Below, piece by piece: positions 210 to 43,035 of a stretch of DNA of 64,000 bases (position 1 is its first letter; each line of letters begins with the position of its first letter). Source of the DNA: Eledone cirrhosa (lineage: Eukaryota); assembly GCA_964016885.1 (NCBI GenBank), contig OZ024747.1, positions 61,876,001 through 61,940,000 on the forward strand. The letters run 5' to 3'. The position numbers and the translations under genes are program-made. The notes below the pieces were generated by a model. It was given only the letters and a program-made list of their open reading frames with translations. It was not told where the DNA came from and did no database searches.

Positions 210-2754
210 TAAATCTAACCATCCTACCAATATCAAGAATGCTATAGTTAATAATATTGGAAATAGAATATCTAACATATCTTCTAATAAAAACATCTTT
301 GATGCTAACGCCAATTACTATAATAACGCACTTTCTAAAGCTGGCTATCCAGATAAAATCAAATATAATAAAGAAACAAATTCTAGGAAAACTTACAGTA
401 GAATATTTAATCATAACCATTCCAATAATTTTAATAAAAGACCTAGATACAAAAACATAATCTGGTATAATGCTCCTTTCTCCATCTCTATTAATAACAA
501 TATTCCTAAATTATTTTTTAGTGCCTTAAATAAATGCTTCCCTCCCTCACATATCTATAGTAAAATATTTAACAAACACACCATTAAATTTTCGTATTCT
601 ACATCCTCCAATATTTCCAACATCATTTCTAAACACAACAACAAAATATTAAATACTAAATCTCTTCCTTCCAATATTGAATCTCATAATAACAATAATA
701 GTACTCCTGACGTCATTGTAAACCCTAGGCTAACTTCTGTAAACCCAAATGCAACGTCAAACACAACTTCGCTAAATGTTCATAATCCAACTCTAAATCA
801 AGAAACTATTATTCCTATTATTCCTATCGCAAACAACTTCTCCAATCCAATTCCTTCTATAGATAACACTAGATCACTCATTAATAATCTCTCTAATTGC
901 AACTGCCGCATTAAAAATAAATGTCCTCTCAACAACCATTGCCTCGATAAAAACTTAATTTATGAATGTAAAATTATAACTAGCACCAACTCCTTCACCT
1001 ATTTTGGCTCCACTTCCACCTCTTTTAAAGCTCGTCTCTATAATCATCATTCATCTTTCAAATACAAACTTAAAAGAACTAACACTGCTCTCTCAGAACT
1101 CATATGGTCCTTAAAAGACAAAAACATTAAATATAACATCTTTTGGAAAAAGATTTCTTCTGCATCCTCGTACTTGAACAGTTCTCTATCTAAAATCTGT
1201 AATCTCTGCCTAAATGAAAAATTTACCATTATCTCTAACCTAGAATCCATAATAAATAGACGCTCGGATTTGTTTTCCATCTGCCTTCATAAATTCCATA
1301 GAACTTTTCACAAAGTATACAGTTAATATTCAATTCTTTATCAATTTAGAATCTTTTCTCAAAGGCACATATACATACACCTCTTTAAAATATACCCATC
1401 TACCTTACTTTAAAGGGCATTATACACTCTATAGTACTCGTTTATTCATTTACCTCATCCTATCTTCTCGTAAAACAATAACATTTGTTTTTGACATTTT
1501 GAATATTCATCCGCAATCATTATTATTTTTTTTTTTTTTTTTTTTTTCCCTCTATCATAAATCTTTTTAATCTCAATTTCATCCTTAATTTATTATTATA
1601 TATATTTTTTTTAATATATACTCATATATTCTTTAAAATATACCCATCTACCTTACTTTAAAGGGCATTATACACTCTATAATACCCGTTTACTCATCAC
1701 CCTCATTATATCTCTTCGTAAAACAATAACATTTGTTTTTGACATTTTGAGTATTCATCCGCAATCATTATTATTTTTTCTCTCTATCATAAATCTTTTT
1801 AATCTCAATTTCATCCTTAATTTATTATTATTATTTTTTTCTCCCCATCAACGAACTCATTATTAATACATATGAATTCAATATAAATTTTTCTCAAATC
1901 CTATACATAAACTTTTTCTCTTTGCTAATTTTAAGATTCCTACATTTCTCCTTTTGAATATTCACCCACAATTATTATTTTTTTCTCTCTATCTCCATAC
2001 ATAATCTCCCTTCGTTATTTTTTTCTCTCTATCTCCATACATAATTTCCCTTCGTTAATTTTCAAATTCCTTTAATTTATACATTATCTTCCAACGGTTC
2101 CCAACCTCTCTATATTAAAACATTATATCTTTTTCTCAGTTATAAAAACTATCTCTTTCTCTCTATCACCCATCTCTCCCTTTCCACCTTCACTCTCATC
2201 TCCTCCCTTTTTTTCATCCTTTCCACCCCCACCCCTCCCTAAATATAATATATTTTTTCCTCGCACATATCCTCCCTTCGTTAATTTTCAAAATTTTTAA
2301 TTTATACAGTATCTTCCAACGGTTTTCAACCCCTCTATATAAAATATATCTCCTCTCTGTTATAAAAACTATCTCTTTCTCTCTATCACCCATCTCTCCC
2401 TCTCATCTCCTTCCCTTTTCATCCTTTTCTCTCCCCCCCTCTCTAAATAAAATATTTTTCCCAATATCACACATCAATCTAAAACCACTTTTCATATGTT
2501 GATTTAAAACTGCACTATCAACAAGTGTTTTTTTAGCCTTCATATCATGTTCTCCTGTTTTATCTGATGAAAACACAAATATTATTGTTTGATGATGTTT
2601 GTTTTTGAAATGCGCATAATAAAATATATTGAACTCCTTTAACCATCTTTTGATCTTATATTATGCATACTCCAGTCCCACAAACTGTAGAGTGCTTCTT
2701 ATCCGATATCTGCATTGCTTTATTGTACTACAATAAAACTCACCTCCTACATTT
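210..2754 (+). mobile_element. 5'-truncated copy of the Penelope-like element (thumb, linker, GIY-YIG, 3' UTR, pseudo-LTR)
   Basis: Near-identical to 10499-12941 with a few substitutions (e.g. T661 and G751 differ). Ends at CTCACCTCCTACATTT directly against a (TA)n tract. Confidence 0.93.
2558..2624 (+). ncRNA. Minimal type I hammerhead ribozyme in PLE pseudo-LTR
   Basis: Stem I TTTTAT/ATAAAA, core CTGATGA at 2564-2570, stem II AAACACAAATAT..ATGTTTGTTTTT, GAAA, palindromic stem III ATGCGCAT, AUA cleavage triplet. Confidence 0.88.
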
Positions 2755-3108
2755 ATAAATATATATATATACATATACACATATATAAATATATATATAT
2801 ACATATACACATATATAAATATATATATATACATATATAAATATATACATATATAAATATATATATATACACATATATAAATATATATACACATATATAA
2901 ATATATATATATACACATATATAAATATATATATATACACATATAAATATATATATATATACACATATAAATATATATATATACACATATAAATATATAT
3001 ATATACACATATAAATATATATATATATACACATACAAATATATATATATACACATATAAATATATATATATACACATATAAATATATATATATACATAT
3101 ATATATAT

Positions 3109-3169
<61 letters not shown>

Positions 3170-3202
3170 CACACATATATATATATATATATATACATAT
3201 AT
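2755..3202. repeat. (TA)n/(TACA) microsatellite
   Basis: Direct inspection; source of spurious Y/I-rich ORFs. Confidence 0.95.
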
Positions 3203-3355
3203 CCAGTGGGTGTAACTAGGAGTTACTGCAGGTTCACCCGGGTGAGCACTCGATGTTTAGGTTCACTTCTGTGATGATGTGTAGAGCTATACAGAGTGTA
3301 AAATATAGAAAGGATAAAAAGGACGATTGATTATTCCTTCATTGCATTTATTGAT

Positions 3356-3442
3356 AGGTGACGCGCGTTTCGCCACTGATCAGCTCAAGGTTCGATCTAT
3401 ATCGATCCTACCCGACTCAATAATCGGCAGCTCGACGGACCC
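3356..3442 (-). ncRNA. Variant hammerhead-like RNA (core CCGUCGA, branched stem II)
   Basis: Minus strand reads GGGT-CCGTCGA-GCTGC[internal hairpins]GTGGC-GAAA-CGCGCG-TC-ACCT, followed by AATAAA. A tail runs to the TA tract at about 3203. Confidence 0.55.
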
Positions 3443-4402
3443 TCTTAAAATGCTGTAAGAAAATGAAATACATGCTATGTGGTAAAGTCAGAGTTTCAAG
3501 AGTTTGACAAAATGAGTTGTTTTGATTGGTGGGAAGGATCAAGGCGATGTACTGGCCTGTAGTGTATATGGGGGTGGGTGTGATGGTGAGATGTTGGTGA
3601 CGGTCGGTGGATGAGGTGGGCTGTGGTGTGGTGGTGGCGGGTTGGCCTTGGCGTGTAGAGTATGTGGGGGTGGATGTGATGATATGGTGGTGGTTATGGT
3701 TATTTAGTGGGATGGGCTGTGGTATGAGGTTAGTGGGTGTGGTAGTGGTGCCGTTGTCTATGGTAGCGGCGTTTGTGGTGGTGTGGTGGATGTATTGGTG
3801 GCGTCAGGTCCTTACATAGATACATAGCTAGACGCTCTTGGTCTGACAGATACCTTGTATATACTTATACGCACACACATATATGTATATATGTGCACAT
3901 ATATTGTTGTATAAACACACACAACATAAAACACATACGCACATCCTTGCCCACACATATCGGCATACGCTCACACACAGCCATATGTATATGTACACAC
4001 ATGTATGTGTATGCGCGCATGCGGACACGAATATGGAGAGTGGGGGAGAATCGGTGGGGGTGGCGAACGACAGAGATGGGGGGAAGGTGAGAGGCAATGT
4101 AGAAGGTGTTTTACTTATATACATACATACACACACATATGGGTATGGGCACATGGACTCACACATGTATGCAAGATATACACACACACATATATATACA
4201 TATATATATATACACACACATGTACCGACAACACACACATATATGAGCTCACCTACACAGTCAGATTTACCCATATACATATATGTAGACGTACACATAC
4301 ACACACATACATATATACACACACATACACATATATATATATATATACACACACATAGACATATGCATACACATGTGTTCACATACACACACATACACCT
4401 AA

Positions 4403-4460
<58 letters not shown>

Positions 4461-9212: not shown

Positions 9213-11615
9213 ATGGATTATTACAACATAACCAATTCTACTAAAGACATTCCTATACCTGGTAAATCTGAATTCACCAAACTTCTTATTGAAAAAACTG
9301 ACTCCTCCGTAAGAAGACTTAGATGGACAGCCTATTTCTATGACCAGCGCCTAAAAGGGAACTTTCATACCAAAGAACACAACTTCCTCGATCATCTTTT
9401 TAATTCCAGACGAAATCCTCCTTCCAACAAAAATCTAGCACAATTCGAGGAAGAATTAACTAAAATTATAAAAAATCTTAAATTCAAGAGATACCCTTAC
9501 AAAGGACAAGAGCACCTTGTAAATCTCAAGAACACAATCTCTAACCTAAATTCCTCAAAAAATGTTTTAGTCCACTCTGACAAAACCAATAACCTATATG
9601 GTATTTCCAAGGATAATTATAACAACCTTATCCTAAAGGAACTTAGGAAAAAGTATCGTAAAACCAACCATGAAAATTTAGAATGCATAAACCTTGAAGC
9701 CTATGAGATTATGTCAAAACTTGGCATTGAAAAAAAGACCGAACCATTCCTCCCAAGAACTCCGAGGATAAATCTCAAGGATCACAAAAACAATTTTCGC
9801 ACTGAGCTACCTGTTAGATTAATCGCCCCCTCTAAATCTGATCTGGGGGTTGTTAGTAAAGCCATCTTGGATAGGATTATCCCACAGGTTAGTTCTAATT
9901 GCTCTTCTTTAAACCTAAATTTATGGTTTGGTACTTCTGAAGTGATTGGCTGGTTCAACAAATTGGATAATAAAAACAAACTAAAATTTATTCAATTCGA
10001 TATTGCCAGCTACTATTCCTCCATTTCGCCTTCACTTCTCAATAATGCTCTATCTTTCGCACTTAAATATTCTGACATCACCACAGATGAACTTCACATC
10101 ATCCTCACCGCACGTAAAACCATCCTAGAGTTCAACAACGAATATTGGACCAGAGCCGATACCTCTAACAACTTCGACATCACAATGGGAGCATCCGATT
10201 CATCCCAATTGACTGATTTAATTGGTATCTTCATTTTGAACTCTTTGAGTCGGAAAATTCCTCAACTTCGCGGTGGAATTTATCGTGACGATGGACTCTT
10301 TACTATCCTAAATTGCAATATAGTTAAACTTAATATTATTAAGAACAATATACGTAATCTCTTTAACCAACATAACCTAAAAATTGAATTTGATAATAGT
10401 ACCAAACTAGCTAATTTCTTGGATGTATCTCTTAATCTTGACACTGGCCTATATTACCCTTACCATAAAAACAATGAGAATCTTAATTATGTTAACTTTA
10501 AATCTAACCATCCTACCAATATCAAGAATGCTATAGTTAATAATATTGGAAATAGAATATCTAACATATCTTCTAATAAAAACATCTTTGATGCTAACGC
10601 CAATTACTATAATAACGCACTTTCTAAAGCTGGCTATCCAGATAAAATCAAATATAATAAAGAAACAAATTCTAGGAAAACTTACAGTAGAATATTTAAT
10701 CATAACCATTCCAATAATTTTAATAAAAGACCTAGATACAAAAACATAATCTGGTATAATGCTCCTTTCTCCATCTCTATTAATAACAATATTCCTAAAT
10801 TATTTTTTAGTGCCTTAAATAAATGCTTCCCTCCCTCACATATCTATAGTAAAATATTTAACAAACACACCATTAAATTTTCGTATTCTACATCCTCCAA
10901 TATTTCCAACATCATTTCTAAACACAACAACAAAATATTAAATACTAAACCTCTTCCTTCCAATATTGAATCTCATAATAACAATAATAGTACTCCTGAC
11001 GTCATTGTAAACCCTAGGCTAACTTCTGTAAACCCAAATACAACGTCAAACACAACTTCGCTAAATGTTCATAATCCAACTCTAAATCAAGAAACTATTA
11101 TTCCTATTATTCCTATCGCAAACAACTTCTCCAATCCAATTCCTTCTATAGATAACACTAGATCACTCATTAATAATCTCTCTAATTGCAACTGCCGCAT
11201 TAAAAATAAATGTCCTCTCAACAACCATTGCCTCGATAAAAACTTAATTTATGAATGTAAAATTATAACTAGCACCAACTCCTTCACCTATTTTGGCTCC
11301 ACTTCCACCTCTTTTAAAGCTCGTCTCTATAATCATCATTCATCTTTCAAATACAAACTTAAAAGAACTAACACTGCTCTCTCAGAACTCATATGGTCCT
11401 TAAAAGACAAAAACATTAAATATAACATCTTTTGGAAAAAGATTTCTTCTGCATCCTCGTACTTGAACAGTTCTCTATCTAAAATCTGTAATCTCTGCCT
11501 AAATGAAAAATTTACCATTATCTCTAACCTAGAATCCATAATAAATAGACGCTCGGATTTGTTTTCCATCTGCCTTCATAAATTCCATAGAACTTTTCAC
11601 AAAGTATACAGTTAA
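9213..11615 (+). CDS. PLE reverse transcriptase / GIY-YIG endonuclease polyprotein (about 800 aa)
   Basis: Uninterrupted ORF with STKDIPIP N-terminus, SDK and KDHK motifs, RT motifs [21 protein letters not shown] and FLDV. A CNCx5CPLx3C linker precedes GIY-YIG-type [25 protein letters not shown]. Start ATG 9213 is inferred; the frame is open from 9153. Confidence 0.93.
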
Positions 11616-12843: not shown

Positions 12844-12909
12844 TTTTATCTGATGAAAACACAAATATTATTGTTTGATGATGTTTGTTTTTGAAATGCG
12901 CATAATAAA
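12844..12909 (+). ncRNA. Minimal hammerhead ribozyme in PLE 3' pseudo-LTR
   Basis: Same motif as 2558-2624 (CTGATGA at 12850, GAAATGCGCATA). Confidence 0.85.
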
Positions 12910-12945: not shown

Positions 12946-13145
12946 NNNNNNNNNNNNNNNNNNNNNNNNNNNNNNNNNNNNNNNNNNNNNNNNNNNNNNN
13001 NNNNNNNNNNNNNNNNNNNNNNNNNNNNNNNNNNNNNNNNNNNNNNNNNNNNNNNNNNNNNNNNNNNNNNNNNNNNNNNNNNNNNNNNNNNNNNNNNNNN
13101 NNNNNNNNNNNNNNNNNNNNNNNNNNNNNNNNNNNNNNNNNNNNN
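12946..13145. other. Assembly gap (200 N)
   Basis: Run of N. Confidence 1.
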
Positions 13146-16477
<3,332 letters not shown>

Positions 16478-16783
16478 TGAAGGCTAAAAAACACTTGTGG
16501 ATAGTGCAGTTTTAAATCAACATATGATATGTTGATTTAAAACTGCACTATCCACAAGTGTTTTTTAGCCTTCATATCATGTTCTCCTGTTTTATCTGAT
16601 GAAAACACAAATATTATTGCATGATGATGTTTGTTTTTGAAATGCGCATAATAAAATATATGGAACTCCTTTAACCATCTTTTGATCTTATATTATGTAT
16701 ACTCCAGTCCTACAAACTGTAGAGTGCTTCTTATCCGATATCTGCATTGCTTTATTGTACTACAATAAAACTCACCTCCTACA
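16478..16783 (+). mobile_element. Solo PLE pseudo-LTR with short inverted 5' arm and intact hammerhead (16590-16656)
   Basis: 16478-16527 is inverted relative to about 16528-16575. Contains TTTTAT-CTGATGA..GAAATGCGCATA-ATAAAA and ends CTCACCTCCTACA plus TA repeat. Confidence 0.9.
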
Positions 16784-42655: not shown

Positions 42656-43035
42656 ATATATTGGTAAACGGAATAGAAAATGCTGACAAATTGTTCACAG
42701 TGAAAAATAGTTTAATTAGGAATAAGTGAGAATAAGTAATAGTATTGGTTAGTATTCAGTTTTGGTTTTTAGTTTTACCGGTTGCGCATTTCTAATGCTT
42801 TTCAAAAATAATTTTGAGATAGAGCGTCCGTGATGTTTGCTCTGATCTGAGCAAACATCACGGACGCTCTATCTCAAAATTATTTTTGAAAAGCATTAGA
42901 AATGCGCAACCGGTAAAACTAAAAACCAAAACTGAATACTAACCAATACTATTACTTATTCTCACTTATTCCTAATTAAACTATTTTTCACTGTGAACAA
43001 TTTGTCAGCATTTTCTATTCCGTTTACCAATATAT
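42656..43035. mobile_element. Near-perfect palindrome with about 185-bp arms in a TA tract
   Basis: 42656-42842 is the reverse complement of 42849-43035 with a 6-nt spacer TGATCT; no mismatches seen by eye. Confidence 0.9.

What the first reader, a model, noticed from the sequence alone, without database searches (positions are those of the whole stretch)
3356..3442. Hammerhead variant with CCGUCGA core and multi-branched stem II
Seen on the minus strand: stem I GGGT/ACCT and a 7-nt linker CCGTCGA in place of CTGANGA. C3, G5, G8 and A9 are kept, with U4C and A6U changes. Stem II GCTGC/GTGGC encloses two further hairpins (CGATT..AGTCG and AGGATCGAT..ATCGAACCT), then GAAA, palindromic CGCGCG, a GUC site and AATAAA. 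Its position near a TA-abutting terminus matches the canonical cassettes. Intact CpG-rich sequence in an AT-rich background argues against simple decay. Inference: a possible natural hammerhead variant that standard models would miss.
Basis: partly seen in the sequence, partly recalled or inferred. Interest (0 to 1): 0.75.

Follow-up and report, generated by a model that had tools for sequence, protein, structure and literature searches.

The report
Retrotransposon hammerhead with doubly mutated core
This is the self-cutting RNA motif in the end repeat of a Penelope-type jumping gene whose youngest lineage, about a thousand copies, carries two changed letters in the normally fixed catalytic core while keeping the rest of the fold, so it is likely a slowed-down ribozyme, though cutting is untested.

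Summary
The motif is real and is not decay of one copy. It is the type I hammerhead in the pseudo-LTR of a Penelope-like retrotransposon with Hydra-type protein motifs. The genome holds 1001 exact CCGTCGA-core sites; none of the first 100 flank-matched copies has A6. Older subfamilies carry CTGATGA, CCGACGA or CTGACGA in the same register. They form a supported ladder in which position 4 changed two or three times and A6U arose once. After A6U, synonymous sites of the element's gene diverged about 37%, against 7 of 89 ribozyme bases and none of 12 core or junction bases. The core, however, is not significantly more conserved than the sequence around it. Published mutagenesis predicts strongly reduced cleavage, and a Penelope hammerhead was dispensable in vitro. 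No RNA data were available. Best reading: an attenuated, probably dimer- and protein-dependent ribozyme (0.5). Main rival: a dead but structurally used relic (0.38). This scan earlier noted U4C or A6U singly in Penelope hammerheads of other genomes; none of the notes shown names the double change.

The parts
3203..4410 (-). 5'-truncated copy (3' UTR and pseudo-LTR end, no ORF) of a Penelope-like retrotransposon with Hydra-type protein motifs; upper boundary approximate
   Evidence: Aligns at about 85% over about 1.2 kb to the 3' UTR/pLTR of ORF-bearing copies L061, L064, L070, L073; same 3' end in the top genome hits
3448..3453 (-). 5' strand of an outer extension of stem I (GCAUUU), predicted to pair with 3344-3349
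   Evidence: Present in both free and constrained folds; equivalent pairing kept through different sequences in the subfamily consensuses
3439..3442 (-). stem I 5' strand GGGU
   Evidence: Pairs with 3356-3359; third pair G-C/A-U changes on both sides in 2 of 26 rows
3432..3438 (-). variant core strand C3 C4 G5 U6 C7 G8 A9 (U4C and A6U)
   Evidence: canonical or single-change cores at the same place in older subfamilies
3372..3431 (-). stem II: unbranched 60-nt rod with internal loops; basal helix 3423-3431 with 3372-3380, opened by G10.1-C11.1
   Evidence: Minimum-energy fold in 14 of 14 consensuses; fifth pair U-A/C-G changes on both sides in 8 of 26 rows
3368..3371 (-). G12 A13 A14 A15.1
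   Evidence: Unchanged in all subfamily consensuses
3361..3368 (-). stem III: palindrome ACGCGCGU; 2 bp as a monomer, 8 bp between two copies
   Evidence: Duplex -14.7 kcal/mol; unchanged in all consensuses
3359..3362 (-). GUC site; predicted cleavage between 3360 (C17) and 3359
   Evidence: Position by hammerhead consensus (established knowledge); cleavage not tested
3356..3359 (-). stem I 3' strand ACCU
3344..3352 (-). AAUAAA (3352-3347) overlapping the 3' strand of the outer stem (3349-3344)
   Evidence: AATAAA present in all consensuses; use as a poly(A) signal not tested
3231..3260 (-). invariant tail block holding the palindrome TCACCCGGGTGA (3234-3245); possible protein-binding or reverse-transcription start element (inference)
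   Evidence: 0 of 30 differences between the window and each of the G, F and E2 consensuses
2760..3202 (.). TA-rich microsatellite, the insertion target
   Evidence: nearly all 3' ends of the top hits abut (TA)n

Best explanation
This is the type I hammerhead in the pseudo-LTR of a Penelope-like retrotransposon whose youngest lineage fixed U4C and then A6U, and it is likely an attenuated ribozyme that would still cut after GUC at a low rate. Shown: the element identity, the family-wide core, the order of the changes, and continued conservation of the cassette relative to synonymous sites. Inferred: a tandem pLTR-ORF-pLTR copy is transcribed; its two hammerheads pair through the ACGCGCGU palindrome to form stem III; G12 and G8 still do the chemistry; the damaged uridine turn slows it by orders of magnitude, so cleavage probably needs the element's own protein or a more permissive metal ion; slow cleavage is enough because uncut RNA can serve as template.
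For: Family-wide core: 1001 exact sites; 80 of the first 100 flank-matched copies read CCGTCGA and 0 of 100 have A6. Ancestry: canonical and U4C cores in the same register, with a consensus tree built without the core giving a ladder with 9 of 10 inner branches starred. Along that ladder only positions 4, 6 and 7 of the core changed; C3, G5, G8, A9, G10.1, C11.1, G12, A13, A14, A15.1, U16.1, C17 and the stem III palindrome never did. After A6U: endonuclease-domain pS 0.373 (29.2 of 78.2 sites, 121 codons) and pN 0.108 between the CCGTCGA-bearing older copy L274 and the young consensus, against 7 of 89 ribozyme bases (P = 4e-7 at a rate of 0.30) and 0 of 12 core/junction bases (P = 0.014). The conserved block 3470-3321 differs at 13 of 149 sites against 43 of 210 in its flanks (P = 0.0016). 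Four changes after A6U at stem positions create or strengthen a pair. Natural U4C stays functional in a viroid and natural A6C has low but detectable activity (PMC3088659, passages and section 8); A6C is rescued by Mn2+ (PMC7151607 passages). A Penelope hammerhead cleaves only with its element's protein (PMC11167929 passages). Two same-strand hammerheads flank the ORF 4856 bp apart in L070.
Against: Cleavage was not observed. In a full pairwise mutagenesis all single and double mutants of the CUGA region had low activity except the C3-G8 swap (PMC9901934 passages; per-mutant values not seen). A6C cut the rate from 0.3 to 3.6e-6 per min at 0.3 mM Mg2+. The core is not significantly more conserved than its neighbourhood (0 of 25 against 7 of 64, P = 0.09; 0 of 12 against 18 of 151, P = 0.23), so the constraint could be on the whole RNA end rather than on catalysis. 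Hammerhead-dead mutants did not impair insertion by the Anolis element in vitro. The hammerhead fold is predicted to lie 6-8 kcal/mol above the free ensemble as a monomer in the variant subfamilies. After A6U one stem II extension pair was lost (column 46-83 unpaired in 6 of 26 rows). The pS estimate rests on one older copy, with a second of 51 codons giving 0.455.
Confidence: 0.5

Rival explanations
1. Catalytically dead relic kept as a structure: A6U on top of U4C abolished cleavage, the element transposes without it, and the cassette stays conserved because the rod, AAUAAA and tail are bound by the element's protein or needed for 3' end formation.
For: Double CUGA mutants have low activity. 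The Anolis element inserts without hammerhead cleavage and no RNA-seq reads ended at its cleavage site. Naiad elements spread without canonical hammerheads (PMC8557442 passages). Non-catalytic parts here (apical rod, tail block 3231-3260) are as conserved as the core. Core against local background is not significant.
Against: The single-stranded core strand, with two CpGs, and GAAA, C17 and the palindrome stayed unchanged over a path of about 0.3-0.37 synonymous changes per site. Stem I, which frames the cleavage site, gained or improved pairs after A6U. The only core positions that ever changed are 7 and the two with known tolerated natural variants.
Confidence: 0.38
2. An efficient new catalytic core: C4 and U6 compensate each other, or the long rod supplies contacts that restore near-canonical rates.
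For: Both changes are fixed in the youngest, still spreading lineage. In folding models the variant core lowers the misfolding penalty against CUGACGA in 13 of 13 backgrounds as a tandem dimer and 11 of 13 as a monomer, because it breaks a UGACG/CGUCA helix between core and cleavage site.
Against: No strong positive epistasis within this motif in pairwise mutagenesis. Any change at these positions would break that helix, so the folding result does not show selection. Two other hammerhead families in this genome keep canonical cores (99 and 87 of their first 100 copies).
Confidence: 0.07
3. The working ribozyme is a nested minimal hammerhead in another register, CUGAUCA-GUGGC-GAAA (3383-3368), and CCGUCGA is irrelevant.
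For: Rfam Hammerhead_1 aligns weakly in this register (16.6 bits, E 0.22); CTGATC is invariant across the consensuses.
Against: It has C at position 8, and G8C abolishes activity. It forms no pair at 1.1-2.1 (G against A), and no 10.1-11.1 pair in subfamilies A-C. These bases are the 3' strand of the rod, and canonical cores sit in the outer register in sister subfamilies.
Confidence: 0.02
4. Decay of this one copy, or a chance pattern.
For: Individual copies do carry scattered core changes (20 of the first 100).
Against: The window copy matches the family majority; 1001 exact sites against 0 in the control.
Confidence: 0.01

Closest known systems
Hammerheads of Hydra-clade Penelope-like elements (Craig et al. 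2021, PMC8557442, section 11 and File S2)
   Same: [quoted passage not shown]
   Different: Every Hydra row seen in File S2 (part 2 of the supplement) has a CTGANGA core and a short stem II; here the core is CCGTCGA and stem II is a 60-nt rod. The unit is about 4.9 kb against under about 3 kb, and the motif reads RWR, not RWK. The strings gaaacgcgcgtc and gagctgatca were not found in that supplement.
Minimal hammerheads of metazoan Penelope-like elements (Cervera and de la Pena 2014, PMC4209133, parts 1-2 of 4 read)
   Same: Located in pLTRs, palindromic helix III implying dimer folding, low activity in vitro, many truncated and opposite-strand pairs
   Different: The core variant reported in the text read is the compensatory U3-A8; U4C with A6U is not mentioned there
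Natural single core variants: viroid U4C and phage Bcep176 A6C (PMC3088659; PMC7151607)
   Same: Same two positions of the uridine turn; catalytic guanines kept
   Different: Single changes in isolated ribozymes; here both positions are changed, 6 to U, in about a thousand genomic copies, with older subfamilies preserving the intermediates
Poseidon PAc hammerhead of Anolis (Frangieh et al. 2024, PMC11167929, passages)
   Same: pLTR hammerhead close to the ORF start; model for protein-assisted cleavage
   Different: C3 and G8 conserved there and cleavage shown in vitro; cut site lies inside the ORF, whereas here it is about 200 nt before the ATG

Membership tests
Type I hammerhead ribozyme | Three-way junction with stems I, II, III in type I order | tested here: met
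   90.9% of cells paired against 24-41% for slid controls; two pairs change on both sides. Structure was derived from these sequences, which favours it.
Type I hammerhead ribozyme | C3-G8, G5, A9, G12, A13, A14, A15.1-U16.1, G10.1-C11.1, H17 | tested here: met
   All present in the window and unchanged across the subfamily consensuses
Type I hammerhead ribozyme | U4 | tested here: not met
   C4; U4 in subfamilies A and E
Type I hammerhead ribozyme | A6 | tested here: not met
   U6; 0 of 100 flank-matched copies have A6
Type I hammerhead ribozyme | Rfam Hammerhead_1 gathering score | tested here: not met
   16.6 bits against 34, and in another register
Type I hammerhead ribozyme | Site-specific self-cleavage | not testable with these tools
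   Needs an in vitro assay or RNA ends
Penelope-like element (EN+) | RT plus GIY-YIG-type endonuclease behind a pLTR; tandem and inverted arrangement | tested here: met
   ORF fragments with LYRDD and YSYIG motifs follow the cassette in L062-L065, L070, L073; L070 is inverted copy + pLTR-ORF-pLTR. Motif names read by eye; Pfam gave no hit. The window copy itself has no ORF.
Hydra clade | DKT, CxCX5C linker, CxxC and CxH, no CCHH, C-terminal endonuclease, (TA)n targets | tested here: met
   PADKTGNL in L063 and L070, CNCKKRDEC, CRLC, CRH against the description; TA flanks
Hydra clade | RWK motif; length generally under 3 kb | tested here: inconclusive
   RWR here; unit about 4.9 kb because of a long 3' UTR
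Hydra clade | Canonical hammerhead | tested here: not met
   Not in this lineage; met in its older subfamilies A and E
Hydra clade | Phylogenetic placement of the RT among described Hydra families | not tested
   No reference proteins were available as tool-held sequences

The most novel reading that the evidence does not exclude
Penelope-type retrotransposons tune their hammerhead down on purpose: U4C and A6U were favoured because they slow cleavage or break an inhibitory core/cleavage-site helix, leaving a protein- or Mn2+-gated ribozyme with a CCGUCGA core not found in the papers searched. The genome preserves the whole mutational path, so it can be assayed step by step.
Probability: 0.2. 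Interest if true: 0.75.

Novelty: new variant of a known kind. Interest (0 to 1): 0.5.

Why it matters
Why Penelope-like elements keep hammerheads is open. Here one lineage gives a natural series, canonical to U4C to canonical to U4C to U4C+A6U, in nearly the same scaffold, while its protein stayed under purifying selection. If the youngest form cleaves, the natural hammerhead consensus widens at two positions thought fixed, and descriptor searches miss such families. If it does not, a successful element shows that cleavage is dispensable in vivo while the fold is still needed. Either result comes from one simple assay series.

Tried and rejected
Branched stem II: rejected on energy and pair counts. 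Nested CUGAUCA register: rejected. Single-copy decay: rejected. Rfam scan of the whole window: the 150 rows shown of 312 were microRNA-model matches below gathering score, largely on repeats, none on the motif. RNAalifold recovered the rod but paired the core with stem III instead of forming stem I, so free folding does not by itself support the active fold. Sequencing runs: no RNA holder listed; two contig runs were laid and give no information on RNA ends. Pfam and PDB searches of the ORF gave no significant hit; the protein atlas gave no answer. A test of core against local conservation was not significant. Swapping cores in folding models favoured the variant, but this is non-specific. Lunse 2017, Ambros and Flores 1998, and Tang and Breaker 1997 were not held; the per-mutant data of Roberts 2023 were not opened (only the file list). 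These unseen sources could report U4C/A6U and bear on novelty and on predicted activity. Eight paper searches listed no paper whose passages I read describe a natural U4C+A6U core. The SARS-CoV-2 variant paper (outline and section 23) gave nothing usable. A search of earlier scan notes by sequence found nothing.

Full report
Observation. The window lies in a 3.0-Gb genome. A search with 3203-3520 gave 2859 candidates, of which the 40 scored are 98-100% identical. The family is therefore young, which by itself explains the intact CpG-rich look. Allowing any 7 bases between the flanks gave 299 sites; of the first 100 listed, 80 read CCGTCGA, 20 carry scattered changes, and none has A at position 6. 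A pattern covering the variant subfamilies gives 1001 exact sites against 0 for the control.

What it belongs to. The cassette is the end of a pseudo-LTR. Longer loci show it at both ends of inverted pairs and in front of a reverse transcriptase and endonuclease ORF. L070 reads inverted copy, pLTR, ORF, 3' UTR, pLTR, with same-strand ribozymes 4856 bp apart and the predicted cut about 200 nt before the ATG. The protein has RWR, DKT, CxCX5C, CxxC and CxH motifs and no CCHH, and 3' ends abut (TA)n. This fits the published description of the Hydra clade, read by eye; Pfam gave no hit and I did not place the RT on a tree. All ORF copies examined are broken. The window copy is a 5'-truncated piece of about 1.2 kb without ORF.

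The register is right. The stem III motif occurs 3990 times. Among 90 sites in loci L075-L158, read in fixed register, 20 have CCGTCGA, 8 CCGACGA, 7 CTGACGA and 1 CTGATGA; most of the rest are truncated, shifted by indels or singly mutated. The CYGACGA forms total 1705 exact sites. Canonical cores therefore occupy exactly the place of CCGTCGA. The tempting inner CTGATCA at 3383, which Rfam picks weakly, has C at position 8 and is the 3' strand of stem II.

History. I sorted 275 cassettes into 14 groups of my own naming by positions outside the core; 17 were ambiguous and left out. Sampling was by best-hit searches, so it is biased toward well-preserved copies. Mean divergence from consensus falls from 0.115 and 0.087 (A, CTGATGA) through 0.056-0.092 (B-D, CCGACGA) and 0.037-0.046 (E, CTGACGA) to 0.020-0.035 (G-H, CCGTCGA) (239 copies). 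A tree of 13 consensuses without the core is a ladder with 9 of 10 inner branches starred; the weak one (86/81) decides whether position 4 changed three times or two. A6U arose once, between F (CCGACGA) and G. No other consensus core position except N7 changed along the ladder. Two other hammerhead families in the window keep canonical cores in 99 and 87 of their first 100 copies, so the change is specific to this lineage.

Structure. On 26 real copies the rod model pairs 90.9% of cells, with changes on both sides at one stem II pair (8 rows) and one stem I pair (2 rows); relatedness inflates such counts. An outer helix closes stem I through different sequences in different subfamilies. Stem III is the palindrome ACGCGCGU, weak as a monomer and -14.7 kcal/mol between two copies, the dimer design described for Penelope hammerheads. 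Free folding does not favour the active fold: the penalty is 6-8 kcal/mol as a monomer and 1-5 as a tandem dimer for the variant subfamilies, and RNAalifold pairs the core with stem III.

Selection after A6U. L274 carries CCGTCGA and an endonuclease fragment in the same insertion. Against the young consensus it shows pS 0.373 and pN 0.108, so the lineage kept transposing under protein selection long after A6U. Over the same path the ribozyme changed at 7 of 89 bases and at 0 of 12 core/junction bases (P = 0.014 at a conservative rate of 0.30). The conserved block matches the extent of the fold: 13 of 149 differences against 43 of 210 in flanks. Four later changes at stem positions add or strengthen a pair, and one extension pair is lost. 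Against over-reading: the downstream 151 nt are also constrained (18 changes), a 30-nt tail block is invariant, and core against local background is not significant (P = 0.09-0.32). Selection on this RNA end is supported; selection on catalysis specifically is not shown.

Chemistry from the literature. Natural U4C lowers activity in vitro but supports viroid infectivity (cited in PMC3088659; original not held). A6C is slow in Mg2+ and rescued by Mn2+. Pairwise mutagenesis found low activity for all CUGA-region singles and doubles except the C3-G8 swap. The Anolis Penelope hammerhead needs the element's protein to cleave and is not needed for insertion in vitro. A double U4C/A6U core should thus be slow at best.

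Verdict. The identity, the family-wide double change and its stepwise origin are shown. The likeliest mechanism is an attenuated, dimer- and probably protein-dependent ribozyme (0.5), closely followed by a dead but structurally used relic (0.38). It works like a Penelope hammerhead but fails the U4 and A6 membership features, so it is a new variant of a known kind. Earlier notes of this scan report U4C or A6U singly in Penelope hammerheads of other genomes; these are unchecked AI notes that I did not test. They suggest a recurring theme, which makes this case less unique. What is distinct here is the double change with its preserved intermediates. No RNA evidence was available.

Noticed in passing
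window 2564, 4760, 12850, 16596 (+): A second hammerhead family with canonical CTGATGA, a long stem II and palindromic TGCGCA; 11206 exact flank matches in the genome, 99 of the first 100 canonical.
   Followed up: partly
window 5052 (-), 6476 (+): A third family with a compact canonical hammerhead as an inverted pair; 1178 flank matches, 87 of the first 100 canonical.
   Followed up: partly
window 9213-11597 (+) and 214-1308 (+): ORF remnants of a related Penelope-like element, about 43% identical to the protein of the family studied.
   Followed up: partly
window 21931 (-), 50582 (-), 50682 (+), 17124 (-), 57567 (+): Further CTGATGA...GAAA cassettes from other families; 50582 and 50682 form a close inverted pair.
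   Followed up: no
window 42796-42895 and 16475-16577: Near-perfect palindromes that score below gathering against microRNA models; probably fold-back transposon insertions.
   Followed up: no
window 3231-3260 (-): Tail block invariant between the window and three older subfamilies, with the palindrome TCACCCGGGTGA; candidate reverse-transcription start or protein-binding site.
   Followed up: partly
family-wide, loci L001-L278: Two preferred 3' ends, about 50-60 nt (46 copies in the top bin) and 150-160 nt (104 copies) after the cleavage site, the longer one including the tail.
   Followed up: partly
subfamilies A and E; window 3437-3433 against 3363-3359: With a canonical core, UGAYG is complementary to CGUCA at the cleavage site, a predicted inhibitory helix that U4C and A6U break.
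   Followed up: partly
L062-L065 against L070, L073: ORFs behind near-identical CCGTCGA cassettes differ by up to pS 0.16-0.19, so several protein sublineages share the variant ribozyme.
   Followed up: no
window near 12960: A run of N (assembly gap or mask) follows the cassette at 12850.
   Followed up: no
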